64,000 bases of DNA from Azolla caroliniana (taxonomy: Eukaryota > Plantae > Polypodiophyta): NCBI GenBank assembly GCA_043228905.1, contig JBHGNT010000016.1, positions 6,944,001 to 7,008,000 on the forward strand, written 5' to 3'. Under the pieces are notes generated by a model. That model did no database searches, was not told the DNA's origin, and saw only the letters and a program-made list of their open reading frames with translations. This document shows positions 7,801 through 47,342 of this stretch, piece by piece. A program made the position numbers and the translations under genes. Position 1 is the stretch's first letter. Every line of letters starts with the position of its first letter.

Positions 7801-10148
7801 GAATGCTGGTATTGTAGCAAAAAAGGCCACATGGAGAGCGTGTGCTGGAAGAAGAGAGCCGATTCAGCTTTGTAGAAGAGACGCAAGAAGGCGTCAGAAA
7901 TCGCACTACGTTGAAGGCTCCGAACAAGTTGGAATTGGATCAGGCCCAGCCTTCGTAATGAAGCACAAGGTTAATTCGATGAACGTGAATACTTCAAAAT
8001 CGAACGAGGTGTGGTATGTTGATTCCGAAGCATCAAATCATATGACGAGTCATGAGGAATGGTTCTCGTACTCGGAGAAACCGGAAATGCAAGGAGTGGT
8101 CGAAACGGGAGACGACACTCCGCATACCATTGAACATGTCGGAGAAGTTCCTCTCAGTCACGTCGGGCAGAACGGGAAACTTATGAACGTGTTGCACGTC
8201 CCGACAATAACTAAGAACCTTTGACAAGGGGATGCAACTTTGATTCATGCACCTCGGGTGCTACATCGAAGAAGAAGGCAAAGTAATCACGCAAGGGCGT
8301 CGTGAAGGGAGGATGTTCATCCTCGACACCAACCAAGTCGGAACCCCACTGTTTGTGAAAGGACAGAAGGTCGAATCGGACATCGACCTGTGGCACAAGC
8401 GGTTCAGCCACGTTAACTTCCCACGGCTTGTGAAATGTAGACGAAGAATATTTTTTTCTAATTGCCGAAATTTCGGGGCCGTAATGGCCAAGTCTACGAA
8501 GCCTGCCAACTAGGGAAGCAGCACCAACTTCCATTCCCCAATGAGCGTAATCGTAGTCGAAATCCGTTGGATGTGATCCATTCTTATGTGTGGGAACCGG
8601 CACAGAACGTGAGTCTCGATGGAAGCCGTTACTTTGTAACCTTCATCGATGAGTTCAGTCGGCATACCTAGGCATGTACGATCGCAAAGAAGAGCGAAAT
8701 CTTCGCATGTTTCCTGAAGGTAAAGAACCTTGTAAAAAGGGAAACAAGACGTAGGATCAAATGCCTACGGTCCGATGGCAGGAACGAGTACTTCTCCGAC
8801 CAGTTCACGGGTTAGCTATAGAAGGAAGGAATTCGATGTGAATTCTCGTGTAGATACACGCCACAGCAGAACAGCGTGGCCGAGCGGAAGAATCGGACGA
8901 TCGAAGAAGCCGTCAGGGCAATGCTTGAAGAGAAGCATATGCCAAAGTTTTACTAGGTTGAAGCCGTAAAGACGGTTGTTTACTTGCATAATCGAACCTC
9001 TGCCAATGGAGGAGTGTCGCCACATGACCTGTATTTCGAAAAGAAGCCGAACTTGGCACACTTGAGGATTTTCAGCAGCATTGCATATGTGCATGTGCCG
9101 AAGCAGAAGAGGAGGAAGCTGGACTCCAAAGCCGAGAAGTGTATCTTGGTCGGCTATTCGGACAAGTAGAAGGGGTATAAGTGCTATAACCCCCGAACAA
9201 AGGAAGTTCGCGTATGCCGAGATGTCATGTTCGACGAGTCCGCTTCATGGTACTTTGCCTTCACCTCCAATACCTCATGATTCCATTCTGAATTCTGAAG
9301 AAGAGTTCAACGAGGCTGATATGCCTCTGCGTGATGAGGATATAGGATCTCTAAGAGAGAGTCCGATCTCATTTCGGCTAAGTGGGCCGAATGAGGGGTT
9401 GGGCTGAGATGGCCAACCAAATGAAGAATAGGCGAGTAGTGGAGACTCGACCGTGTTGTCCCCGCGTAAAGAACCAAGGAGACGGTTTATGCGTAAGAAA
9501 AAGGGACGTACAAAGTGTTAGAATACGATTTCGGCAGTGCCGAGTTAGATTGGAGCGAATCTGACTTTGGGCCAATCGAGAAGGAACCTCCATGGAAGGG
9601 GTCGAAATCGACCGAAAAGATTGTGAAATCGGGTGATCACGAATTACGTCGATCTACCCGCTTGAAGAACCCCGTAAAAAGATACGGGTACAATGAATAC
9701 ATGGCGCACCATTATGCCTACATGACACGAGTGGTGGAAGTGCGTGAGCCGGAGAGCTACGCAGAAGCGGCGGAAGACGCAAACGAGCGTGCCACGATGG
9801 AGGAAGGGATGTGTGCATTATCGGACAACGAAACTTTGGACCTGGTTGACGCACCTAAAGGTGTTAAGCCGATCGGATGCAGATGGGTTTTTAAGGTGAA
9901 ATACAACATAAACGGCTCGGTCAACCGATATAAGGCCCGGTTGGTTGCGAAAGGCTACGCGCAGAAGCACGACGTAGATTATGACGAGACCTTCGCCCCG
10001 GTCACGAAGATGACTACCGTGCGAGTTCTGCTAGCCGTAGCTACTGTCATGAACAGTACTGAGACAGAGAAGGAATTAGTACTAAACGAAGGATTAGTAC
10101 TATGAGAGGTGTGGAACTTCTTCGAGAGAAGGAAGAAGTGAGCGAGAC

Positions 10149-10201
<53 letters not shown>

Positions 10202-10488
10202 TGATAAGAAAGATATTTATTATATGAAGAGAATATACAACGGTGGCTAAAAGGCTTAAGACTGGCGTTGAACCAATTTGGTTCAACATAATGCCTAGTG
10301 CCCTCTTTTATAGTGTTTTCAGGAGTAATCCTGAAGCTTCTAGAATGTTCCAGAGAAATCTGGAATATACACTAATTTCCTATAATAAAATGTAAATGAA
10401 AATAATATCCTACGTATTACAATAGATGGTCTAATGGTCAAGAGCTCGACCCATATAACCTAAGGTCATGGGTTCGAGTCTTGCCATA

Positions 10489-13400
10489 TCATGACACTAT
10501 CCCCCCTTTAAAACGACGAGTGTCACGAGTCGTCTTGGATTGAGGACCCGGTTTGTGTGGATATTGACGATGGAAGTCTTCAAGAAGAGCACGAGCATTG
10601 GTTACATTCTCGATCGGTTCCCAAGTACGTTCGCTGGGACTATAGCCTAGCCAATCGACTAGATAGTAGAGCTTGTTGCGAACAATCTTGGAATCAAGAA
10701 TGGCGGCAACCTCGTACTCCGGCCCATCTTCAAGCTCGATCGGGGGTGGAGGTTGGATAAGACGTTCTGGGATGGTGCTCTCGTGGTAGGGTTCGAAGAG
10801 AGAACTATGAAACACCGGATGTATCCGAAGTTGAGGAGGTAGATCGAGACGAAAAGCAACATCATTAATCTTTCCAATAATACGGAAAGGACCTAATCGC
10901 CGATAATCCAACTTCTCACATGGGCGAGTAGTCTTGATGTGTCGTCGTAGCAACCACACCCGATCTCCAATATTAAAACTAGATGGAAGTTGATGACGAT
11001 CCGCGTAGACCTTGTGTGTTTGTTGAGCTTGCTGGAGATGAGTAGATAAATCCGCTTGTATCTTGCGTAACCGCTCCAAATGATCCTCTGCGCACGGATT
11101 TGTGGACACCTCTGGGGTTTCAAGTACACTCCACTGGGGGTGACATCCCGTATAAGCATAAAATGGCGTAACTTTAGTGGATGCGTGGATAGAGTTGTTA
11201 TAGGCAAATTCGGCGAAGTGGAGAATATCTGCCCAGTCATCCTGATGATAGCTGAGAAAGCACCGCAGATACTGCTCCAACGTTTGATTTGTTCGTTCAG
11301 CTTGGCCGTCAGTTTGTGGGTGGTAGCCGGAAGAGAGGTTACAAGTGACCTTGAGCATGTTAAAAAGGTGCTTCCAGAATTTTGACACGAACTGGGGTCC
11401 ACGGTCGCTGATGATACTATCGGGGAGTCCATGATGCCGACATACTTCACGCATGACAATTTCGGCAGTGTCTTCACTGGAGATCTCCTTAGTACATGGC
11501 AAGAAATGAGCCATCTTCGTATATCGATCGACCACCGTTAGAATCGCATTGAACCCCTTAGAGACTGGAAGATCTGTGATGAATTCTAGAGCAATGGATT
11601 GCCACGGCTTGCTTGGAATTGATAATGGTTCTAATAAACCATATGGATGATGCCTTGGCATTTTCGCTCTGCAACATGTATCACAAGTCCGAACAAAATC
11701 CTCGACAAATTGTCGCATACAAGGCCACCAAAATGATCGTTGTACTAAATGTAATGTTTTAGTACTACCAAAATGCCCAGCTGTATATGTGTCATGACAG
11801 TTTTGTACTACTCGAAGGCGGCAAGAACCATTAGGAACATACAAAATTTCTTTAAAGAAGAGTAATCCATCATGGTATTTGAATTGCCGATAGTCCGTAC
11901 CTGGTGGTTGCGACTGTGAACACGACGCTCGAGAGGGGTCAATTTGTGCTAGTATAGCTTGGGCGAACGCATCTGTCTTCAAGTCTTCACGTATGGTATC
12001 GATAACGCGGGAATCCATAGGCATGTCAAATATTTGTGTTGCTTGTAATCGTGCCGGTCCCAAGATGACTTGTTTTTGGTTATCGAAAGCTGGCTCGCCA
12101 GGACGGGGTGCTAGATACGAACGTCGTGATAATGCATCTGCCTTCCCTTGGTGCCTCCCCGGACGATATGTAATTTTGAAGTCGAAACGCGTGAGGAAGT
12201 GGGCCCACCAAGCTTGACGTCGATTCAACACACGAGCATCCTGAAAGTAGCCAAGATTCTTGTGGTCACTAAATACGGTGACTGGATGAGAGGATCCCTC
12301 CAGAAAATGCCTCCATTGCATAAAAGAATCCACTATTGCCAATAGCTCCTTATCATGGATTTCGTAGTTGATGTCGGCGGCATCAAACTTGCGTGAGTGA
12401 AAAGCCACAGGATGTAGCTTTTCATCATTCCCCTGTTGTGACAGAATGCTCCCTAATGCAAAATCCGATGCGTCAGCTTCGATAATGAATGATTTCTCCG
12501 GATCGACATGAGCTAGAATTGGAGCCGATGTAAATGCTTTTTTAAGACTCTCGAAAGCCATGTCCGTTTCTTCAGACCAGATGAACGGTTGTCCCTTCCT
12601 GGTAAGTTGTGTGAGAGGTAGAACGATCTTTGAGTAATCATGTATGAACTTCCAGTAAAAATTGGCAAAGCCTAAGAAGCATTGCACATCCCGTACCGAA
12701 CGCAAAGTCTGCCATTCTACCACCGTTCTGACCTTAGCTGGGTCCATGGAGATGCCTTCTGACGAAATGATGTAGCCGAGAAATTCCACTTGGTTGCACC
12801 CGAAACTACATTTTTCTAGCTTTGCATACAGACCATGTTCTCGAAGTCGTTTTAGTACTAATAGTACATGAGAATCATGTTCTTCTTGGGTCTTTGAATA
12901 AACCAGTAGATCATCCAAATAGATGATCAAACAATCATCCAATAGATCTCGGAATATATCATTATCCATGTGCTGGAAGACTGCCGGCGCATTAGTGAGG
13001 CCGAACGGCATGACAGTATACTCGAAGTGCCCATATCTGGTGCGAAACGCGGTCTTCCATTCGTCTCCTGGTCGGATCCGTACGAGGTTATATGCTCCCC
13101 GTAAGTCGATCTTCGTGAAGAACCTGGCACCATTGATCCGTTCTAAAAGACTTGAGATAAGGGGAAGAGCATACCTATTCCTGATTGTAACCTTATTCAA
13201 GCCACGGTAATCTACAACGAGACGAAGCGATCCATCTTTTTTCTTGACGAAGAAAATGGGCGCACCGGTTGGAGATTTCGAATGCCGAATGAAACCATTT
13301 TCCAAATTCTCCTCTATATAGGCCCGAAGGACTTCCAGCTCGGTTGGTGACAAATTGTAGATCGGTCCCCATGGCGGCTCTTTTCCCGGTTGTAAATCGA

Positions 13401-14085: not shown

Positions 14086-16223
14086 TCTTCTTCTAACTGA
14101 CTAAGGACATCAAATTTGTTTGCTAGATCTGGGATATTAGTACTATTAGGACTATCAGATATCCCTACTGAAATAGGCTCGGATTTAGTACAATTAGAAC
14201 TAGCGACTATTTGGTTTACCTGTCTTCTTGGCCTATGGGGGCAATTTATTGCGATATGTCCTGGTCCACCGCAGTAAAGACATAGTCGATTTGTACGGCG
14301 TCGCTGCTTTTCTTCTTCGGATAATGGCCCTCGACGACGTGTAGTGTCAATCTCCATCGGAGTCGGAGTATTCGCTGGAGACGAATTATATGACTCCCTC
14401 GGAAAAGGTCTTGCTACCACTGAGGCGTAGGTGGGCTCTGATCTTGCCCTCGGCATCTGTAACTGTCGTTCCGAACGTCGCTCAAAGAGGCGGTTGTCAC
14501 ATCTCACCGCGCGACTGATTGCTTCTGTTAAGGACTTTGGCTCTTCGGGGAAGGTCAAGAGTAAATCCTTGACGTCGTTGCGTAAACCATAACGGAATTG
14601 CTCCATCAACGCTTGATCATCCCAATGGATATCGGCGGCCAGTAGGCGAAAATCTGCAGCGTATGCGGAGGCTGGACGGTCACCTTGGCGTAATCGCCGG
14701 ATTTTGTTGATTGCGGTCCTGATGCTGTCAGTATCTCCGAAACATGCTTTAAACTCACCTAGAAACTCTTCAAAATTGTTGAGTAACGGAGATTCCTTTT
14801 CTAATAGTGGAGCGAACCATGACAACGCTGAGCCACTTAACAAAGTGCCTACTAAACCCACTCGTGATGCATCGGTGGGATATCGGGAAGGATGCATTTG
14901 AATAACTAATCGTACCTGGTTAAGGAACCCTCTAAACTGCGATCGCGTTCCATCGAACTTCGTGGGAAGGCCAATCTTAGGTTCTTTATGAATCCCTTGT
15001 GTTCCAGGCCCATGTTGTTGCATCGCTACGATGGTGGCTTCGAGTTGTTGCACGCTGTCGTGACGTGGCTCGCCTAGAAGCGTAGCGTTGCGCACACAAA
15101 GGATAACGTGAAAGTGAGGAAGGAATCACAGGGATTATGGACGGAAGAGACGAAAGAGTAGAGATAGAGTGAATAGAGATCAATAAGATATGACAAAATA
15201 GGATTTTTAAGGAATATAAGATAAGACAAGATAAGATATAAAATAATATATGAGAAAGTGTATGAAATTTGTAATCATTTTCATGAAAGAGTTACAAAAT
15301 GATTGTGCACGTCGTTGAACCTCCGAACTTTGTCTTGCAAGGTAATCGCTCTTCTCTTTCTTGATCGTAGACCACTACAATCTTCACTTCAATATTTTGA
15401 TGAAGATAAGGCTCGAACTGCCTCCCTCTTGTTGAGAGTTGACCACCACGACCGCCAAGCTAGAGCTCCACCTTTATCTTGAACTTCTTCCTTTCTTTCT
15501 CTATTTTATGGTATCTCTTATGTAATATATATTTGATTGATATCTCATACCTATCTCCCTTTGATCTTCTCTTTCACCATTTAAATAGGTGCCCCCATGC
15601 ATATGATGCATTGGAGGGTACAAATCATGCATGTAGTGCATGAAATGCATGTGATGCATGATCGCCATTTGGCGTTCATGTATTACATGTGATGCATGAT
15701 AAACATCTCGCTCATTTGAGCTTTTATGTATGAAACAATATATGCAATAACAATAAACATGAAAACATAATCTTAAAGAGAAAGGGCCTATCCTAATGGT
15801 AGGTGTGTCAACTTTGGTGTATGAGGTTGTGGGTTTGAGTCTCAAAATGCTATTGAATACAACATACAACTTTATTTTTATATCATGAAGCAAATCCTTT
15901 ATGTAATATAAAGTATATATAAAGTATGCTTTATTTTATGTATATTACTAGTATAGAGTAAATGGTAAGATTTGAGAGTCATAGGGTGGGGTTATTGGTT
16001 CAAGTCCTCTCTTGTTCGTGTAATATAATATATTTATCTATATATATATATTATTTTTCTTTACATATATATAATATTATCATATGTGTTGTTAACATTA
16101 TATAAAACATTATCAAATGTTATTTTAGTTACGTATTTATCTTATTGTAGACTTTTAATGTGAAGCTTTCGTACTTCACGACATCCACCCCCTCTAGACC
16201 TGCACATCCTCCGGCATGTGCCA

Positions 16224-16808
16224 CTATCTTTCATCTTCATGTTGATCTATTTGAGGAGGTTCAAGCTCAAACCTTTTCTTAAATACTTTTATCCTCTTTC
16301 CAGCTACCACGTTTAGGATTAGTGTCCCATCCAATTCACTAAGCTTATAAGTAAAGTTATCATATACTTTTCTTACTATATAAGGCCCAAACCATCTTTC
16401 AGCGAACTTGCGGACGGTGCTATGTTGATTATCTAAACTGCTATCATACACGAGTACCCAATCTCCTTCTTCTATTTTCTTAGGTCGAATTCTATGACTT
16501 TTATCAAAACGGATTTTATTCTTTAGTCGAGCCTCCTTCAATCGTTGGGCTGCTATTTCTATATCTTCAGGTCGACGCTCTAATTGTTGAATTCGCAAAG
16601 CAAGCAATTCTTCTCTGCTCACCTCTTCTCTCCATGGAATAGATATCCATGACATAATTGATTCTTCTATCGGCATGATGGGCTTTTGGCCAAGTATCAA
16701 TTCAGCTGGCATGTATCCTGTTACTGAACTATGAGTTGTTCGATCCGCCCATAGTGCATAAGGTAGCATGCGTGGCCAATCTCTTATTTTACCTTTACAG
16801 CTTTTCAC
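16224..16808 (-). pseudogene. Element E integrase C-terminal part, out of frame because of a short deletion
   Basis: WPRMLPYALWADRTT...WFGPY; frame break at ERGHSPI|VKSC. Confidence 0.85.
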
Positions 16809-19678
16809 CTTATTGGGCTATGTCCTCTTTCAATCTTTCCATTGGCTTCTGGATTATACGCAGTTGTAAGTGATAATTTGACCCCTATTCGGCTGAAGAA
16901 TTCTCTAGCTTCATCAGAATCGAGTTCTCCTCTATCTGCAATTATTTTACCAACACACCCGTAACGACATATTACATCTTCTAACAAAAATTTACATACA
17001 GCTCTAGTTGTTTTTTGTCGTAGTGGTCTTCCTTCTACTTGGTTTGTAAGGTCTTCTCTTGCTAGTACTAAATATCGCATTTGACCTTCCCCAAGTGGCA
17101 TTGTCACTAAATCAACCATCCATTTATAATGCATTGATGATGAATATGTTGGTTTTAGCTCATCTCGATACCGGATAGTTGAATATCTCTGGCAAACCTC
17201 ACAGGTTTCCACAAATTTCGTTACATCTTTATACATATGTGGCCACCAATACTTTTCTTTCAACTTCATAAATGTCGCCCATATGCCTCTATGTCCTGCC
17301 CACAAACTATCATGGAATTCATTAAATAATTTTCTCTTAATGTCATCCTTACAAATGACTCGAAGAGGATTCTCGATTGGCCTTTTTGGACGCCTCCATA
17401 AATGCCCTTCATGTAAAAAAAACTTGAATGCTCGTCTTCGAAATTCATTTAATTGTTTCTTTGACCATGATGGGTTGGCTTCTTGAGTCTTTAGAAAATT
17501 TCCTATTTCTAACCATTGACCTTCATACTCTGTGTCTTTGAACATTATACTTACATAAAACTCATCATGAGGCGTAATAGATTCTTGATGAGCAAATTGA
17601 TGGCTTGTAGTTGCCCAGTACTTATCTTCAGTTTGCATCACCTTTTCATTTATGAACCTTGCCCTTGACAGCATATCTGCAACTGGGTTGTCTTTTCCTT
17701 TTATATGCCGCAATTCTGGGTTCATGGTTCTGATGTATGCAATCCACCGAAGCATTGCAATATCTGGTGTCGTGCAACTTGCTATCATTCCAATGAGTGG
17801 CAAACAATCTGTTTCAACCACTACATCTGCTCCGATCAAGTAATCTCTATCTGTTTTTAATGCAGTAAGCAAACCCCACAATTCTCGTTTAACTTGTGCA
17901 TAGTTTCTTTGTCTTTCATTTAATATCTTTGCTCCAAATCTGATAGCATATCGATGTTGGTCTTCATCTTCTTGGTTGATAACCCAACCGATCCCGATTG
18001 GGCTAGTATCAACTGTTACTATAATTGGTCTTTCACCTTTGTAGTCTGGTTGACGAAGAACTGGTGCTTTCAGTAATTCTTCTTTCAACTGTTGAACAAC
18101 TTGTGTATGTTCATCAGTCCAAATAAACTTCTTTCCTTTTCTTAAAAGTTGGTAGAGAGGATCTGAGACATGTGCAAAGTGTGGTAACCAAATATGATAA
18201 AACACACATGCACCCAAAAATCTTCTCACCTCTGTTACCGAGTCGCAAACTTCCTTCATATTTTGTATTGCGTTAATTTTGATCGGTGAAGGCTTCCTCC
18301 CATACCACCCACACATATGACCAACTATTAGAACTTCGTTTTGCCCAAAGCAAGACTTTGTTCCTGATAGTGTCAAATGTACCTGCTCAAGCTTATTTAA
18401 AATACTTTCACAGTCATTAATGTGATCCATCACAAACTTTCTGCAACCATTTCCAACCATAGTCTCATCTTTCTCTCTTTCTAAGCATCCCTTTATAGGA
18501 ATATCATCTAAAAATGGCATAGTTACCTTTGGGATGTATTCATGTAGAACTTTGTTCATTGCATTCATCATATGAGCAACTGAATTCGTCGCACCTTGAG
18601 GTAGAGTGCACATTCGAACCAACCCAATTGGTGTTTTCATTGTTGTGATGTTGCGACTATCAATTGCTAGTTGAAATTGGTCGTATCCTGAATATAGGTC
18701 TCCCATAGAGTAAATCGCTCTTCCAGCAAACGCTTCCGCAAATTCATCAACGATCGGTCCGATTCCCACATTTCGGATTGTGACTTTGTTGACTGGTTGT
18801 AGATCTTGAATGAATCTTAGAGAACCATCTTTCTTTGGAACTGTGAACCATCTATTGGAGTATGGTGCATTTGAAGGCTCTAAAATCTTCATCTTGACTT
18901 TATCCTTCAACAGCTCCAACAATTGAGGTAATCGAGCTCTCGGTACTGCAATAGGTTTAAAATTCCAAGGAATATGAGGGATAGTAAATATTACCATTGG
19001 CGTCACCACCTTTGGATTTACACAACCAATCTCCTCAGCTTTGAATGCGAACGCTTTCCCATGCCTAAAGATCATTTCTTTGAAAGTTGCGATCTCTGAT
19101 TGCAGAAGAAATTCACCCCTTCCGATTCTCAAGTTATTTATTGTCTCCGAAGTGAAGTGATGTCCAATCTTCTCTATTGGTCGAAGCATAGGCTCAGTTG
19201 CTGCTGCCTCCATCTTCTCTTCACTACCAATAGGTAATGGTACTGCAGCAGGTTTGACCTTTTTATCTATTGTTTTGTATTTTGTATTACATAAACTTTC
19301 TACTTCTTCATATTTACAATTATACCTATCAATCTCATAATACATATCAATTGAGTTTACATGTATCTTTCTAACATTCTCATCATCTTCTTTCAAATAC
19401 ATTTCTAACTCTTCTAAAGTATTTGCAAAAGAAATTTCTTCCATAACACTTTCAATCTGCTCTTCCATTTCAAGTACTCCATTATCCTTCAATGCCTGCT
19501 GAAACAGATTAGCATTCTTTTTCAAGTTCCTCTTGCATTCATACATCCTAGTCACACATATAGCACCACTTTCAGAAACATGAAATGACTTATTCATATG
19601 TTGTAATGCCCTATATGAGGGTCTTTTAATAATGGGACTATTGCAACCCTCACGCGCAACAGTCCTAGTCAAAAACCT
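16805..19678 (-). CDS. pol: Element E RT-RNase H-integrase ORF (+1/-2 frame relative to gag-PR)
   Basis: LPQGATNS, FLDDI, VDTSP, HHCC zinc finger, WMVDLV, IADRGE, EANGKIERGH. Confidence 0.9.
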   Translation of the reverse strand, partial: RFLTRTVAREGCNSPIIKRPSYRALQHMNKSFHVSESGAICVTRMYECKRNLKKNANLFQQALKDNGVLEMEEQIESVMEEISFANTLEELEMYLKEDDENVRKIHVNSIDMYYEIDRYNCKYEEVESLCNTKYKTIDKKVKPAAVPLPIGSEEKMEAAATEPMLRPIEKIGHHFTSETINNLRIGRGEFLLQSEIATFKEMIFRHGKAFAFKAEEIGCVNPKVVTPMVIFTIPHIPWNFKPIAVPRARLPQLLELLKDKVKMKILEPSNAPYSNRWFTVPKKDGSLRFIQDLQPVNKVTIRNVGIGPIVDEFAEAFAGRAIYSMGDLYSGYDQFQLAIDSRNITTMKTPIGLVRMCTLPQGATNSVAHMMNAMNKVLHEYIPKVTMPFLDDIPIKGCLEREKDETMVGNGCRKFVMDHINDCESILNKLEQVHLTLSGTKSCFGQNEVLIVGHMCGWYGRKPSPIKINAIQNMKEVCDSVTEVRRFLGACVFYHIWLPHFAHVSDPLYQLLRKGKKFIWTDEHTQVVQQLKEELLKAPVLRQPDYKGERPIIVTVDTSPIGIGWVINQEDEDQHRYAIRFGAKILNERQRNYAQVKRELWGLLTALKTDRDYLIGADVVVETDCLPLIGMIASCTTPDIAMLRWIAYIRTMNPELRHIKGKDNPVADMLSRARFINEKVMQTEDKYWATTSHQFAHQESITPHDEFYVSIMFKDTEYEGQWLEIGNFLKTQEANPSWSKKQLNEFRRRAFKFFLHEGHLWRRPKRPIENPLRVICKDDIKRKLFNEFHDSLWAGHRGIWATFMKLKEKYWWPHMYKDVTKFVETCEVCQRYSTIRYRDELKPTYSSSMHYKWMVDLVTMPLGEGQMRYLVLAREDLTNQVEGRPLRQKTTRAVCKFLLEDVICRYGCVGKIIADRGELDSDEAREFFSRIGVKLSLTTAYNPEANGKIERGHSPIR

Positions 19679-21839
19679 GATTATCAAAATCATCACAGTC
19701 TTTTGGTATTAAATGATCACGAAGCTCTTGCTTGTTCCTCTCATGATTTGGGCGAACTGTCATAAATTGTACAGTTCGTCGTCCATCTTGGCTACGGATT
19801 TTCGCATAGGCAGAACCATTGTCGAGGACTTTGGTCTCCATTCGTACCGCTGTAATGTATGGTTGCCCTAGGATTATTGGATAGGTAGATCCTTCCTGCA
19901 CAAAGAAATGTTGATCTACCTCTATATCACCAATAGTAACCTTTACATTTGGGCATGCACCAAATAAATCTTCTGTGACTGATGTGGCAGCTTTTACTCG
20001 CCAACCATGTTGAGTATCAATTGGCCATCTACCTTTCCTGTAAAAATCAGCACTCATTATATTTATTTCAGAACCATGATCAATAAGTGCCATCACGGGG
20101 TCTGGAACATTTCCAATCTTCACATGATGCTCAGTAGTGGCTCTTGCCCAACATTTGCGAGAGTAATGGCTTCTTACATCTGTTGAATTTATCATTGAGG
20201 TTGATGCATGTTGAGAGTCAACAACGATATTGTTTGACTCGTTGCTCACCACTTCATATGCCACCTTCGGATTTGTCTCTTTAACCTGCTCATTTACTTG
20301 CTTCTTTCTTCGCACAATATCAATTATTTCATCATGAAATTCCTTTTTTGCAATACCTAACACTTCTCTTAGTGTAAATTCTACTCGACTGTCTAGTATT
20401 CTTGTTTCTAAAACTTTCTTTAAATCTGTATCCTTTTCAATATCAGACATTAATTTGAATGAAGGACCAGATTTACCTTTTTCAACTTTTGCGTCCATCT
20501 CTTTTCTTTTGCTTTCTCTTGTTTCATGCTTTTTGGTTGAGCCAATCTCATCATCCGATCTTTTCCTTTTTTCTTCCACTATCACCTCATGCTCTTGGTG
20601 TTCTGCCATCTGAGCATAGACCGTCATAGCATCTACTGGAACATCCCATCCAGTGTTTTTCCTTACAGAATCTCCGGCAACACGAAGGTCTTCCATCTTC
20701 ATCTTTTGCTTTTGTGCGGTACTTACAACCTTCTCCCAGAATGGTGATCGGGATGGCATGTCATCGAGGCGCACCCCTGCCGTTGCCGAGTAGTACATTG
20801 CGGAAGCCTTCTTTGCTTCAGCTTCTTCAAATTTAACCTTAACACCACCATCACCAAAGTTCTTTGTAAGTGGACTTCTAGTTTCAGTTAAATAAATGTT
20901 ACCATTTTTCCAATACACCAAGTCTCGATTTTCCATGTCTTTATATTCCGCACAATCACGTAATCGATGTTCGAGGCTATCACACCACATGCATCGAGGT
21001 CGAAATGGTTCCCTTGACCTCGAAGTCTGACCATTCTCAAGCTTTGCCACTTTAATTGTTAGATCTTTCATACTTTGAACTAAATCATCAAGCAAAGACT
21101 CACTCTTAGTTTCGATCATTTCTCGTGGTTGATGGACCATTTCGTGTGATGGTTCTTGACCAAGTCTTTGAACTTCGATGTTTTGCTCAAGCCGATTTGT
21201 GATTCCCACATGTGGTATTTGTAGCATTGCACCATTCCTTTGCATTCTTTTCATAAATTTATTACAAGCATTTGTTACCTCATTCCAATCTGCAGTTATA
21301 CCATCCTCAGTATTTGGTACTTCAAGCATGAATTCCAATTCTTTTCTATATCTCTTGTCAACTGCCTGCAAAAATAAAGCAACCTTTTGCCAAGACAAAG
21401 AATTTCTTTCTTCTGGCTTTAGGTGTCCATACATCCTATCAAACTCTTTTTTTGTGTCAGACACAGATAACCCTTTATCTTCTTTTAAGATCCATTCATG
21501 AAATGAACGCATAGTAACTCGAGAGAAATCCTCACGAGCATATTCAGACACAAGTGCTTCTTTGAATGCATTCCAATCCAAACTATGCAATGCTTGTATT
21601 TCATGAATTCTATCTCTTAATTCCATGTCCACTAATTTATAAAAGTTTGCTATCATATTGACATCATTTATACCAAACATTTCCATTTCATCATAATATA
21701 TATTCACATACTTCGAAATATTTGTGCCATCAAACATACCAATCTTCTCTCGGACTTCTCGTAAGGCATGAAATAATCGATCTTGATTCAACTTTTCAAT
21801 AAACAACATTACCGGATCCATTGTACTCGTACTTGCCAT
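19665..21839 (-). CDS. gag: Element E gag-protease ORF
   Basis: Open ~725-codon ORF with FDGTNIS, knuckle CMWCDSLEHRLRDC and aspartic protease-like ALIDHGSEINIM...IILGQP. Confidence 0.9.
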   Translation of the reverse strand: MASTSTMDPVMLFIEKLNQDRLFHALREVREKIGMFDGTNISKYVNIYYDEMEMFGINDVNMIANFYKLVDMELRDRIHEIQALHSLDWNAFKEALVSEYAREDFSRVTMRSFHEWILKEDKGLSVSDTKKEFDRMYGHLKPEERNSLSWQKVALFLQAVDKRYRKELEFMLEVPNTEDGITADWNEVTNACNKFMKRMQRNGAMLQIPHVGITNRLEQNIEVQRLGQEPSHEMVHQPREMIETKSESLLDDLVQSMKDLTIKVAKLENGQTSRSREPFRPRCMWCDSLEHRLRDCAEYKDMENRDLVYWKNGNIYLTETRSPLTKNFGDGGVKVKFEEAEAKKASAMYYSATAGVRLDDMPSRSPFWEKVVSTAQKQKMKMEDLRVAGDSVRKNTGWDVPVDAMTVYAQMAEHQEHEVIVEEKRKRSDDEIGSTKKHETRESKRKEMDAKVEKGKSGPSFKLMSDIEKDTDLKKVLETRILDSRVEFTLREVLGIAKKEFHDEIIDIVRRKKQVNEQVKETNPKVAYEVVSNESNNIVVDSQHASTSMINSTDVRSHYSRKCWARATTEHHVKIGNVPDPVMALIDHGSEINIMSADFYRKGRWPIDTQHGWRVKAATSVTEDLFGACPNVKVTIGDIEVDQHFFVQEGSTYPIILGQPYITAVRMETKVLDNGSAYAKIRSQDGRRTVQFMTVRPNHERNKQELRDHLIPKDCDDFDNQVFD

Positions 21840-21883
21840 GTTGATGTTGATCTTCACTTTAGATGTCTCTTCTACTTCCCCGT

Positions 21884-21901
21884 TTCACGTCGGGTTCACC
21901 A
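21884..21901 (-). promoter_or_regulatory. Primer-binding site (tRNA-Trp) of element E
   Basis: The plus strand reads TTCACGTCGGGTTCACCA, matching the 3' 18 nt of plant cytosolic tRNA-Trp(CCA) as recalled; 5-nt spacer to the LTR. Confidence 0.85.
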
Positions 21902-24900
21902 AATTGTGTCGTGACGTGGCTCGCCTAGAAGCGTAGCGTTGCGCACACAAAGGATAACGTGAAAGTGAGGAAGGAATCACAGGGATTATGGACGGAAGAG
22001 ACGAAAGAGTAGAGATAGAGTGAATAGAGATCAATAAGATATGACAAAATAGGATTTTTAAGGAATATAAGATAAGACAAGATAAGATATAAAATAATAT
22101 ATGAGAAAGTGTATGAAATTTGTAATCATTTTCATGAAAGAGTTACAAAATGATTGTGCACGTCGTTGAACCTCCGAACTTTGTCTTGCAAGGTAATCGC
22201 TCTTCTCTTTCTTGATCGTAGACCACTACAATCTTCACTTCAATATTTTGATGAAGATAAGGCTCGAACTGCCTCCCTCTTGTTGAGAGTTGACCACCAC
22301 GACCGCCAAGCTAGAGCTCCACCTTTATCTTGAACTTCTTCCTTTCTTTCTCTATTTTATGGTATCTCTTATGTAATATATATTTGATTGATATCTCATA
22401 CCTATCTCCCTTTGATCTTCTCTTTCACCATTTAAATAGGTGCCCCCATGCATATGATGCATTGGAGGGTACAAATCATGCATGTAGTGCATGAAATGCA
22501 TGTGATGCATGATCGCCATTTGGCGTTCATGTATTACATGTGATGCATGATAAACATCTCGCTCATTTGAGCTTTTATGTATGAAACAATATATGCAATA
22601 ACAATAAACATGAAAACATAATCTTAAAGAGAAAGGGCCTATCCTAATGGTAGGTGTGTCAACTTTGGTGTATGAGGTTGTGGGTTTGAGTCTCAAAATG
22701 CTATTGAATACAACATACAACTTTATTTTTATATCATGAAGCAAATCCTTTATGTAATATAAAGTATATATAAAGTATGCTTTATTTTATGTATATTACT
22801 AGTATAGAGTAAATGGTAAGATTTGAGAGTCATAGGGTGGGGTTATTGGTTCAAGTCCTCTCTTGTTCGTGTAATATAATATATTTATCTATATATATAT
22901 ATTATTTTTCTTTACATATATATAATATTATCATATGTGTTGTTAACATTATATAAAACATTATCAAATGTTATTTTAGTTACGTATTTATCTTATTGTA
23001 GACTTTTAATGTGAAGCTTTCGTACTTCACGACAACGCGTAACGCAAGTTCCCCATGTTGTTGTTGCGTTTGCTGCTTTTCTAAGGAGATTTGTTGAAGA
23101 TCCCCCAGCAACCGTTGGTTTTCTTGTTCCAAAGCATGGAACTTCTCCTTCAAGCATTGGAATTCCGAGAAAACAGATTGATATTCTTCAGCGCTAACAG
23201 TGGCCATGGGATGAAAGAAAAGAGGAATAAAAGATTAGTAGGAAATGAGAGAGACAGAAGGTAGGCAAATTGGTTCAAACTGTCATGAACAGTACTGAGA
23301 CAGAGAAGGAATTAGTACTAAACGAAGGATTAGTACTATGAGAGGTGTGGAACTTCTTCGAGAGAAGGAAGAAGTGAGCGAGACAGAGAGAAAGAGAGAG
23401 AGAGAGAGTGTGTGTGTGTGTGTGTGTGATGATAAGAAAGATATTTATTATATGAAGAGAATATACAACGGTGGCTAAAAGGCTTAAGACTGGCATTGAA
23501 CCAATTTGGTTCAACATAATGCCTAGTGCCCTCTTTTATAGTGTTTTCAGGAGTAATCCTGAAGCTTCTAGAATGTTCCAAAGAAATCTAGATTATACAC
23601 TAATTTCCTATAATAAAATGTAAATGAAAATAATATTCTACGTATTACAATAGATGGTCTAATGGTCAAGAGCTCGACCCATATAACCTAAGGTCATGGG
23701 TTCGAGTCTTGCCATATCATGACAGCTACGGCGAAGGGGTGGAATCTACATCTGATGGATGTAAAGAATGCTTCCTGCAAGGTGATCTTGAGGAACAGGT
23801 GTACATGGTACAACCCCCCTGATTTTTATCCGAACAGAACACTTCGGCAGTCTGCCGATTGAAGAAGGCATTATATAGACTTAAGCAAGCCCCACGAGCT
23901 TGGAACATGAAGATTACCCAATGGTTGTGTAGAATGCGGTTTACGACGTCCAAATTTGACTCTTTGTTGTTCGTTCGGCAAGGTCGACATGGACCGGTTT
24001 GTCTTTTACTTTATGTTGATGATTTAGTCATCGTTGGTGCCGACCTGGAATAAATCTGCCATGTCAAGTCTCAGCTCGCGGCGTCTTTCGAAATGAAGGA
24101 TCTTGGAGACCTTCATTACTTCCTCGGGATTGAAGTGATCCATTCCCCCAAACGCATATTCATCAGTTAGCGTCATTACGGGCTAAATATGTTCTTCAAA
24201 TTCGGGATGGCAGATTGTAAGCCCATCTCGACCCCTTTGGATAGAAATGTAAAGCTTTGCCGAGATTCGGGAAAGGCGTGCGACCCGACACGGTTTCGAC
24301 TGATTGTTGGAAGCCTCATCTACTTGACGATCACTCGGCCAGACTTGAGCTATCTGGTCGGAATGGTCAGTCAATTTATTTCACAACCCATGACTAAACA
24401 CCTTCAGTGCACGCAAAGGATATTACAATATGTCAGCGGCACAAAAGACATGGCGTTGTTGTATCGTGCAAACGTAGCTGAGCAGTCGGTCAGCTACATG
24501 GATGTCGATTGGGCCGGAAATGCCCACGATCATAGGTCCACATCCGGATACGCATTCTCATTGGGAAGTGTGGCGATTGCGTGAACCAGTAAGAAGCAGC
24601 TGACAATAGTGTTGTCGAGCACGGAAGCCGAATATCGAGGGGCGACTGTCACTACGTGCGAAGTCATTTGGCTAAAACGGCTATTACAGGATCTACAAGT
24701 AGAAGTGTCCGATCCAACGACAATCTACTACGACAACCTCAGCAGCATCCACCTTTCGAAAAACCCTGTATACCATGCTCGGACCAAGCACATTGAGGTG
24801 CACTACCATTTTGTTTGCGAGCGTGTCCTTTCTGGTGAAGTCGAACTGGCATATGTTCTGACATGTCGGTAGCTTGCCGACATCTTCACCAAGCCCCTTG

Positions 24901-27049: not shown

Positions 27050-28950
27050 CAATATGATTGCAATTTTCTATTCTTGGCATCCTTGTCGGTTTTGATTGTG
27101 GTTGCATCTAAAAGGCATGATTCCATGTCTGTCTTGAGCAAGTTAACTCAAGTAGTGTGTCTATATTCCATCTCTTAAACAATTTATGTGTATTGTGACA
27201 CCATGAAGAAGTTATTGTTGCCTTTGTTTATCTTGTGTGTTGTATTGCTAACAACCATATCCTTTAGTGGATCGTGGCTCATAAAATCCTCTAGTTCAAT
27301 GCGTCTCATCAAATATCACTAAGCATGGAATGATTTTCTTGATCCCAAGGTGACATAGTAAGATCAATATGTGTACCTATTAAATGTCATTCTATCCAAA
27401 GAATGTGTATACTTCCTCTATAAAAACTCCATGCACTATATAAGTATCAAGGTTTCTTATGCACTAAAGTGCCTGACCTGAGTCTATGAAGATTATTGAG
27501 TTGGCCTGAAAATTAGTCTTAACATGACATTCATTAATTCCAAAACAAAGACATAGATGTTGAGTTTAAGGATGCTTTTTTTCAATGGTCTCCATGGAAT
27601 TCCACAATTCATACATAGGGTGAAAGGAGATTTTCGTTTGGTAGTTCTCTCCACAAACCTCTATGAGTACCTTGGCTATAAAATCAAGTTTTGTTTATGT
27701 TCATCTACCTTGCAACACTTTGAGAGTAGGAAAGGGATAGTATTTTCTTGTTATTTTGATTTCTTAACTACTTAGAGTACATGTTTTTTATTTTCCTAAA
27801 CAAGATATCCTTCCATTAGTTTTAAAAAGCATATCTGCTACAAAATACAACCAATAGCTCAACGATGCTGCTTCCAACAACACCTTTGTTACAAAAGACT
27901 TCAAAAGCTTCCTTTAGAGCCTTGTGAAAGAGGGAATGATGTACAAAGCATTACTCACATATTGCAGATATTTATCATGCAATTCAAACACATTCCATAC
28001 AAATGTCTGGTCTGATCCAGTTACAACATCCTTCTTCTCAGCCTTTTTATTGCTTGTTGTATCTTCTGCTTGCTTTACCAATTTCATTCCTTCATCGGTG
28101 ATATGCTTCTTGAAAATGTTTGCAATGGGATTAGAGACCTTTCGTTATTTTACAAAATAACCGATACATCCTTAACAGCTCCTCCTCCTTGACATCTCTC
28201 CACAATGCATGGCATCCTGAATGCTCCTTTTCCAATAGTTGTTGCTCATATTGGGTAAGCAACTCAATATGTTTGTAGCCCAATTGGTAAGGTTATGCAT
28301 TCAAACCCCACATTCCACAATAGTACCTAGTAAATTAAGTGGGTAAAAGAGGTGTGCTAGTTTTGCCTTGAACCCAAGGACTTAGTGTATAACAATTTAC
28401 CACTAGGATATGGTACTTCTTAAAAAAGCAATAAAGATAGAGGTGAGTATCCTAAAGTTCCCTAATCATTACCTTAACAAATACATTTGGCTTATGGGTT
28501 GGACATGGTGACCAATTATTTCCATAATTTGGTGAGGATATGTCCATGTACCTTATATTGTGGTATTTGTGGTCTCCATTCTTGATGGCATTCCTTTGCC
28601 AGCTCTATGTTGACTCCTTCTAAAGGTAAAAAGCTCCATGAGATGGATAGATTTTATTATCGTCTTCGGAAATTCATGTTTGACCTATGGGACAAAGATA
28701 TAACATTTTCACGTCATGCATGTGGAAGTGAGTAGCGACTCTTAATGTTCAAGAACTTTCTAATGAATGTCACAACTGAAAGTGCACATTGGGAGAAAGT
28801 TGTGCAAGGATTGGGCTTGGTCGAAAATTTGTGGAAAGCATAGTCAAATGTGATCAAAGGCAAAGTATTGTATCAATGTGTGATACTCAAGCTCCATAAC
28901 TTGTTTAATGCAAAATGTCCATAATTGACTACTCTCATCGTCTGTGCCCC
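27050..28950 (-). pseudogene. Decayed hAT (DUF659-like) transposase remnant
   Basis: Scattered degenerate motifs on the minus strand (MPCIV near 28210, FLNP-like near 27565, dimerisation-like near 27200); no intact ORF. Boundaries are approximate. Confidence 0.4.
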
Positions 28951-37797: not shown

Positions 37798-45819
<8,022 letters not shown>

Positions 45820-46680
45820 GGCAAATCACTCGCCTATTTCTGCATATCAATCTCAGCCTAATTGTGAAATATATCACGAGGGCACTTGAAGAAAACCTAG
45901 CAAGAACAGATTCCTTTCAATCGTCAATTCCATCTATAAGAGTTGAAAAATGTAAAGGAATCAGGGAATCCATGGAATGTTCGGTGCAACCGATGATACT
46001 TACCATTAGCACGTAGCTATCTGATGTATCTCTGAGGCTTAAATTTAATCTGAAGACATCAGGAGGCAGCAATCCTCTCTCTTACACACAGAAAACCTAG
46101 CCAGAGCAGATTCTTTTACATCATCAATGCCATTTCTAAGAGCGAAAGAATCGAAGATCAAAGATGTATGTAGAGTTCAGTTGCAGCACCCTAACTAGCA
46201 AGAGAGAATCACTATACTTACCATAGTTATAAGCAGGTCCAATTTGTCTAAACCTAATCTAACGTGAAGATATCATAATGCAGAAATCCTCTGGCTCACA
46301 GAAAACCTAGCAAAAACAGAATTTTTTCCACTGTCAACCATCCAAAAACTTAAGGAAATCAGCTGAATCAGATGTATAGTTCAAATGCAAAAACCTAGAT
46401 TGATTGGAGAAGAGCACTATGATACGTGACGTTTCCAAAAGCTCAAAAATATTGCAGAAAACCTCTATTATCATAGAAAGCCGAGCAAGCCTACATTTTG
46501 TCACAACCAACACAATCAAGCATGAGAAATGTGAAGGGATCTGTAGAGAAGGCCAGAATTAATCAGAGAGAGACGCTGATGTACATACCATGTCTTGAAG
46601 CAGAGGTGGCGGAGGAAGCCGGTGAGACGTTGACACAGAAGTTAACGTGGTTAGGGTTAGGGTTAGGGTTAGGGTTAGAG
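45820..46680 (-). promoter_or_regulatory. Predicted spliced 5' UTR of the NDR gene: exons ~46680-46589, 46306-46222, 46096-46004 and 45896-45820
   Basis: Repeated acceptors (..TGCTAG|GTTTTC) and strong donors ATG|GTATGT and ATG|GTAAGT; ~200-bp tandem duplicated units. Confidence 0.7.
46651..46678 (+). repeat. (TTAGGG)4 telomere-like tract
   Basis: Seen directly in the sequence. Confidence 0.95.
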
Positions 46681-46724
46681 CTTCTTTCTTTTCGAGTATT
46701 GCTTGCATGTATGAATTCAAGCAT

Positions 46725-47342
46725 ATGTATGTATGTATGCTATGTATGTGTGTTATGTATGTATGTGTTTATGTTATGTGTGTAATGTATGTATCTACAT
46801 ATGTGTCTATGTATGTATGTATCTATCTATCTATCTATCTATCTATGTGATGTATGTATGTATGTATCTATTTATCTATCTATGTGATGTATGTATGTAT
46901 CTATTTATCTATCTATGTGATGTATGTGTGTGTATGTATGTATGTGTGTGTGTATGTTATGTGTGTAATGTATGTATCTATGTGTCTATGTATGTATGTA
47001 TCTAAATATGTATCTATCTATGTGATGTATGTGTGTGTGTATGTATGTATGTGTGTGTGTATGTTATGTGTGTAATGTATGTATCTATGTGTCTATGTAT
47101 GTATGTATCTAAATATGTATCTTTGTATGTATCTAAATATGTATTTTGTATGTATCTATGTATCTATCTATCCATGTGATGTATGTATGTATCTATCTAT
47201 GTGATGTATGTATGTATCTATCTATCTATCTATGTGATGTATGTACAGTATGTATGTATCTATCTATGTGATGTATGTATCTATCTATCTATGTGATGTA
47301 TGTATCTATGTATGTGTCTATGCGTCTATGTATGTATCTATG
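46725..47342. repeat. Compound TATG/TATC/TG microsatellite
   Basis: Seen directly in the sequence; source of spurious Cys/Tyr/Val ORFs. Confidence 0.95.

What the first reader, a model, noticed from the sequence alone, without database searches (positions are those of the whole stretch)
45820..46591. Splice-assembled uORF cassette: every 5'-UTR exon of the NDR kinase ends in ATG
Seen: tandemly duplicated ~200-bp intron-exon units upstream of the kinase ATG. The donors are GACATG|GTATGT (46589), ACTATG|GTAAGT (46222) and CTAATG|GTAAGT (46004). Every acceptor is CTAG|GTTTT (46306, 46096, 45896, plus a possible one near 46394). Splicing therefore always creates ATG-GTT-TTY with +4 G, giving uORFs MVFCEPEDFCIMISSR*, MVFCV* and MVFFKCPRDIFHN*. 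Because the junctions are interchangeable, any exon-skipping pattern keeps a uORF but changes uORF number and identity. Inference: a modular translational dial for NDR, built by exon-intron duplication.
Basis: partly seen in the sequence, partly recalled or inferred. Interest (0 to 1): 0.72.

Follow-up and report, generated by a model that had tools for sequence, protein, structure and literature searches.

The report
Duplicated 5' UTR intron-exon units
The untranslated leader of this NDR kinase gene is made of four tandemly duplicated, spliced intron-exon units; the ATGs at three exon ends are likely leftover copies of one ancestral ATG, and close relatives have lost several of them, so this is probably an ordinary dampening leader and not a splicing-controlled dial.

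Summary
The repeats are real and are spliced, but the 'dial' is not supported. Spliced contigs from 6 of 8 runs laid show four 5'-UTR introns, not three. So 3 of 4 exons end in ATG and 2 of 4 junctions read ATG|GTT. The junction behind MVFCEPEDFCIMISSR was not seen, and no exon-skipping joint appeared. Each ATG lies wholly inside its exon, and the +4 G is already there unspliced. The units are homologous (z about 5), so the shared junctions descend from one. Relatives about 92-95% identical keep all four introns but read GTG or ACG at exon 1 and ATT at exon 3; one shifts the frame of the last uORF. The leader has 7 uATGs against 8.3 expected by shuffling. Best reading: tandem duplication of one ATG|GT...AG|GTT intron, with uATGs now decaying, probably giving ordinary uORF dampening. 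Translation was not tested.

The parts
46589..46670 (-). 5'-UTR exon 1 (5' end approximate); ends in ATG (46591-46589)
   Evidence: Joint 46489/46588 in X14 and 46489/46594 in X8; X5 contig has 102 letters beyond 46468
46491..46588 (-). 5'-UTR intron 1, 98 nt, GT-AG; most diverged unit
   Evidence: homology z 1.9-3.5 to the other introns
46395..46490 (-).
   Evidence: Covered by spliced contigs of X1, X14, X4, X5, X8; alignment to exon 3 z=2.8 without ends, 4.6 with ends
46307..46394 (-).
   Evidence: Joint 46301/46390 (cut +5, CT..AC) in X1 and X14; X8, X4, X5
46222..46306 (-). 5'-UTR exon 3, 85 nt; ends in ATG (ATT in X4/X5); internal uATG at 46276
46097..46221 (-). 5'-UTR intron 3, 125 nt
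   Evidence: Joint in X1; X4, X5, X8
46004..46096 (-). 5'-UTR exon 4, 93 nt; ends in ATG; holds the 5-codon uORF from exon 3 and an internal uATG at 46059
45897..46003 (-). 5'-UTR intron 4, 107 nt
   Evidence: Joint in X1, X2, X14 and X5; loose ends in X4, X8
45554..45896 (-). Exon 5: last 77 nt of the leader (body of the 13-codon uORF, internal uATG at 45845) and first coding part; main ATG at 45819-45817 in GCCATGG context
   Evidence: N-terminal region matches four paralogues
37943..45819 (-). NDR (STK38/Cbk1-type) kinase coding region; the lower end is taken from ORF fragments only
   Evidence: five coding introns supported by contigs

Best explanation
The NDR kinase leader has four spliced, homologous intron-exon units that likely arose by repeated tandem duplication of one 5'-UTR intron whose donor exon happened to end in ATG, so the matching junctions are likely inherited copies rather than a selected design. 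Shown: five exons, four GT-AG introns, the same intron positions in relatives, three exon-end ATGs and four internal ATGs in this genome, and loss of exon-end ATGs in relatives. Inferred: one ancestral ATG|GT...AG|GTTTT intron was copied three times; the first internal exon then lost both inherited splice sites and took new ones (acceptor 9 nt upstream, donor about 30 nt downstream); single uATGs then decayed lineage by lineage. Inferred, untested: the 433-nt leader lowers kinase translation constitutively through leaky scanning and reinitiation past short uORFs (3-37 codons, all ending before the main ATG), as many plant regulatory genes do.
For: Homology of units. All four introns spliced, in runs of 5 studies. 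Exon-1 end reads ATG here, GTG in X5 and ACG in X8, so ATG is the parsimonious ancestor and was lost twice; exon-3 end reads ATT in X4/X5; X8 has a 1-nt insertion at 45879 that cuts the 13-codon uORF to 8 codons; internal uATG 46474 is absent in X5 (my reading of tables 4, 5c and 7). Three losses in 6 comparisons against 0.9-1.3 expected. uATG count 7 vs 8.28 +/- 2.22 in shuffles; strong-context uATGs 2 vs 0.59, P=0.11. The unit has no dispersed copy and no match in four paralogue loci. A paralogue carries its own tandem array of eight degenerate exon-end/donor copies, so this genome makes such duplications at exon borders.
Against: All four introns persist in every relative covered, so something may favour the multi-intron leader. 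The exon-4 ATG is kept where it could be read (X4; in X8 only the G is readable). A second, ~92% identical copy in X1 and X14 retains intron 1 and uses a junction 4 nt upstream of donor 2 that forms an ATG across the joint, so some alternative splicing exists (low depth, 3.9 and 4.4). Only two relative haplotypes were read, and 2 of the 6 triplet comparisons are incomplete. Contigs hide rare isoforms. The source of the copied ATG was not resolved.
Confidence: 0.75

Rival explanations
1. Splicing-controlled translational dial: regulated skipping or retention of interchangeable units sets the number of uORFs and so the NDR level.
For: Two junctions read ATG|GTT and would be interchangeable. uORF control by alternative 5'-UTR splicing is common in Arabidopsis (594 uORFs in 399 genes; PMC10896292, passages). 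Intron-1 retention and an alternative donor occur in a second copy in two runs.
Against: No skipping joint among 20 listed joints. Exon 2 breaks the pattern. Junction ATGs and uORF frames are not conserved. Skipping exons 3 and 4 would create a 55-codon uORF overlapping the main start, so the units are not equivalent.
Confidence: 0.08
2. The exon-end ATGs are copies of the kinase's own start codon: duplication used the 5-nt CATGG microhomology shared by the exon-1 donor and the main start, so each copy of intron plus leader ends in an old start codon.
For: All three ATGs lie 77-90 nt after their acceptors, the main one included; exon-1 end and main start share CATGG. The 5' part of exon 5 aligns weakly with exons 3 and 4 (local, P=0.046 each).
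Against: The global exon-body test of exon 5 against exons 3 and 4 is not significant (z -0.1 and 1.2). The 25 nt before the ATGs match neither exon 1 (P 0.16, 0.74) nor the main start (P 0.45, 0.46). This is a variant of the best explanation, differing only in the breakpoint.
Confidence: 0.15
3. The introns, not the ATGs, are what is kept: several short leader introns raise expression or export, and the uATGs are a cost that lineages are purging.
For: Introns conserved 4 of 4 while ATGs are lost 3 of 6, above the neutral expectation at P 0.04-0.13. Purifying selection against uAUGs is the general rule (PMC7889888, section 7 read).
Against: The excess of losses is not robustly significant. The leader is not depleted of ATG (7 vs 8.3). 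Short introns persist over this distance without selection (own knowledge).
Confidence: 0.2

Closest known systems
Intron gain by tandem genomic duplication (listed in PMC3296678; passages seen)
   Same: [quoted passage not shown]
   Different: Here a whole existing intron with parts of both flanking exons appears copied, making new internal exons, and it happened in a 5' UTR.
Plant uORFs changed by alternative 5'-UTR splicing: HCS1, PIF3, TOPLESS cassette exon (PMC10896292; passages seen)
   Same: Multi-exon leader with short AUG uORFs, some spanning junctions.
   Different: Those have shown isoforms and Ribo-seq support; here no skipping isoform was seen and translation is untested. A repeat origin is not mentioned in the passages seen.
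Multi-uORF leaders such as ARF6 (PMC10896292, figure legend seen)
   Same: Several short uORFs upstream of a regulatory gene.
   Different: uATG number here equals the shuffle expectation, and three are duplication copies.
Conserved-peptide uORFs (CPuORFs, e.g. CIPK6, bZIP11, SAMDC2; named in PMC10896292)
   Same: uORF upstream of a kinase.
   Different: The peptides here are 3-37 codons and their starts and frames vary between relatives that are 92-95% identical.

Membership tests
NDR (STK38/Cbk1) kinase | Kinase domain closest to NDR/LATS members | tested here: met
   One 96-aa stretch: STK38 E=4.3e-32, Cbk1 5.2e-29, next DMPK 2.1e-21; Pfam Pkinase
NDR (STK38/Cbk1) kinase | MOB-binding N-terminal region and C-terminal hydrophobic motif | tested here: inconclusive
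   N-terminal block is shared with four paralogues but had no Pfam hit; the C-terminal motif was not tested
Tandem intron-exon duplication | Adjacent units homologous beyond splice motifs | tested here: met
   3 of 12 pairs at 0 of 1000 shuffles (z 4.8-5.1), 4 more at z 2.8-3.5
Tandem intron-exon duplication | New introns are spliced | tested here: met
Tandem intron-exon duplication | Outgroup with the single-unit state | not testable with these tools
   No relative genome is held; paralogue leaders do not align
uORF regulated by alternative splicing | Isoforms that differ in uORF content | tested here: inconclusive
   No skipping joint; intron-1 retention and an alternative donor only in a second copy at low depth; contigs hide rare forms
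uORF regulated by alternative splicing | uORFs are translated and change main-ORF output | not testable with these tools
   Needs Ribo-seq or reporters
Conserved-peptide uORF | Start codon, frame and peptide conserved across species | tested here: not met
   ATG to GTG, ACG or ATT, and a frameshifting insertion, in close relatives

The most novel reading that the evidence does not exclude
Tandem copying of one ATG-ended intron-exon unit multiplied uORFs in a growth-control kinase leader, and lineages now tune NDR output by keeping, weakening (GTG, ACG, ATT) or splicing around single copies, including a 4-nt donor shift that builds an ATG across the junction: a uORF copy-number rheostat.
Probability: 0.1. 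Interest if true: 0.55.

Novelty: new member of a known kind. Interest (0 to 1): 0.2.

Why it matters
As read here it is a tidy local example of how tandem duplication adds UTR introns and multiplies uATGs, which then decay. The natural series of leaders (3, 2 and 1 exon-end ATGs) is a ready-made test of whether duplicated uORFs matter. It would matter more only if regulated splicing of the units were shown to change kinase output.

Tried and rejected
No holder was on record as RNA; the RNA nature of X1, X2, X14, X4, X5 and X8 is inferred from contigs that skip GT-AG introns (coding introns too for X1, X2, X14). 8 of 15 listed runs were laid. X3 behaved as DNA; X13 laid nothing, which is no evidence. 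One search hid 94 rows of table 3, 17 of table 7 and 33 of table 8. No exon-skipping joint was found, but contigs show presence, not absence. Transposon origin of the unit: no other match in G000 (lower-bound searches). Shared leader with paralogues: best blastn E=0.37 in four loci, and no ATG|GTR donor-like site near their starts apart from one coding hit and two far upstream. Origin of the ATG from exon 1 or from the main start: neither significant. That the replaced codons GTG, ACG and ATT are near-cognate starts is not evidence of tuning: any single change of ATG gives a near-cognate codon, and two of the three are transitions. Literature: 'NDR kinase'+'uORF' gave 2 unrelated papers; 'tandem duplication, UTR exons, uORF, duplicated exon' gave 2 unrelated; some searches gave background only, seen as listings. 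Earlier scan findings were not available. No protein homologue search was run, so the plant group was not determined.

Full report
Setting. The gene lies on the minus strand of a 523-Mb eukaryotic genome. One kinase exon hits human STK38 (E=4.3e-32) and yeast Cbk1 (5.2e-29) best, so the NDR label holds. The main ATG is 45819 in a GCCATGG context, and its N-terminal block matches four paralogues. That the organism is a land plant is my inference from gene style and recalled plant NDR N-termini; it was not tested.

What is in the DNA. The region is a tandem array of about 200-bp units. With splice motifs removed, exon 3 vs exon 4 (z=4.8), intron 3 vs intron 4 (z=5.1) and the intron-2 homologue vs intron 3 (z=5.1) beat all 1000 shuffles; four more of the 12 pairs reach z 2.8-3.5, and five do not pass z 2. 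The unit has no other copy found in the genome and none in paralogue leaders.

What is spliced. I laid 8 of 15 listed runs. Six carry intron-free contigs, from five studies; X3 is DNA of a relative and X13 laid nothing. They show four leader introns: 46588-46491 (X14, X8; X5 by loose end), 46394-46307 (X1, X14, X8, X4, X5), 46221-46097 (X1, X4, X5, X8) and 46003-45897 (X1, X2, X14, X5; X4 and X8 by loose ends). Single contigs of X1 (1820 nt) and X5 (2537 nt) link the leader exons to the coding exons, so transcription starts upstream of the units. By alignment it is a fourth exon copy whose inherited acceptor and donor have decayed and been replaced nearby (inference). Thus 3 of 4 exons end in ATG and 2 of 4 junctions are ATG|GTT. 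None of the 20 listed joints skips a leader exon; contigs drop rare forms, so skipping is unseen, not excluded.

uORFs. The supported 433-nt leader has seven uATGs giving uORFs of 16, 37, 5, 5, 4, 13 and 3 codons, all ending before the main ATG. MVFCV and MVFFKCPRDIFHN are among them; MVFCEPEDFCIMISSR needs exon-2 skipping. Splicing does not create these ATGs or their +4 G: unspliced they read ATG GTA. Only two of the three have a purine at -3. Seven is what composition predicts (8.28 +/- 2.22). None of five contig-supported coding donors ends in ATG, so ATG donors are not a gene-wide habit; three homologous ones count as one event.

Relatives. Two haplotypes about 92-95% identical in leader exons (X4/X5 and X8) keep all four introns. 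From tables 4, 5c and 7, read by hand: exon 1 ends in GTG (X5) and ACG (X8); exon 2 in GAG (X4/X5) and TAG (X8); exon 3 in ATT (X4/X5), with only the G readable in X8; exon 4 keeps ATG in X4, with only the G readable in X8. X8 has a 1-nt insertion at 45879 that ends the 13-codon uORF after 8 codons, and X5 lacks the internal uATG 46474. Three losses in six comparisons compare with 0.9-1.3 expected at 5-8% divergence (P of three or more 0.04-0.13). The junction ATGs are therefore not protected. No DNA run of those individuals was laid, but these differences sit among many ordinary substitutions.

Against my reading. The introns persist, the exon-4 ATG persists where readable, and a second ~92% copy in X1 and X14 retains intron 1 and joins 46399 to 46306, which forms an ATG across the joint (depth 3.9 and 4.4). 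That is the only truly splice-assembled ATG seen, and it is not in this genome's copy.

Mechanism. Most likely one 5'-UTR intron with an ATG|GT donor and AG|GTTTT acceptor was duplicated three times in tandem. Each internal exon is then a join of the downstream exon's start and the upstream exon's end, which makes all junctions alike without any selection. The copied ATG may come from exon 1 or from the main start through a CATGG microhomology; tests did not separate these. A paralogue shows a similar array of eight exon-end/donor copies in its first coding intron. Functionally the leader probably dampens translation by leaky scanning and reinitiation, which is established for short plant uORFs (PMC10896292, abstract and passages) but untested here.

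Comparison. Tandem genomic duplication is a listed route of intron gain (PMC3296678, passages). Splicing-dependent uORFs are common in Arabidopsis (594 in 399 genes). uAUGs are mostly under purifying selection (PMC7889888, abstract and section 7). Searches found no report of an NDR uORF or of a duplicated uORF-exon array; the library lacks most subscription papers, and no supplements were read.

Verdict. Real structure, wrongly counted and over-interpreted. New member of a known kind; interest 0.2.

Noticed in passing
L005:1561-2560 (G000:C15 NDR paralogue, first coding intron): Tandem array of eight degenerate copies of the 3' end of the first coding exon plus its donor, about 80-280 nt apart; splicing of these copies is unknown.
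   Followed up: partly
window 46649-46678: Five copies of TTAGGG on the plus strand (telo-box-like on the transcribed strand) at the 5' end of exon 1, next to a 620-bp TATG array at 46724-47342.
   Followed up: no
window 43581-43666: An 86-nt GC-AG intron in the kinase coding region, supported by contigs of three runs.
   Followed up: partly
window 15056-23034: LTR-retrotransposon-like element with two 100% identical 1128-nt terminal repeats (TG...CA) and long minus-strand ORFs, apparently nested in an older element whose repeats at 10043-10496 and 23279-23724 are 95% identical.
   Followed up: partly
runs X1 and X14 over window 46294-46615: A second ~92% identical copy of the leader at low depth, with intron 1 retained and a junction 4 nt upstream of donor 2 that forms an ATG across the joint; suggests a homeologue or mixed sample.
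   Followed up: partly
L006:1020-1365, L005:1280-1375, L007 and L008 upstream regions: The other NDR paralogues also have ATGs upstream of their likely starts, some in strong context; their leaders were not resolved with RNA.
   Followed up: no
window 27914-28300: Broken ORF fragments that look cullin-like (label recalled; no Pfam hit).
   Followed up: partly
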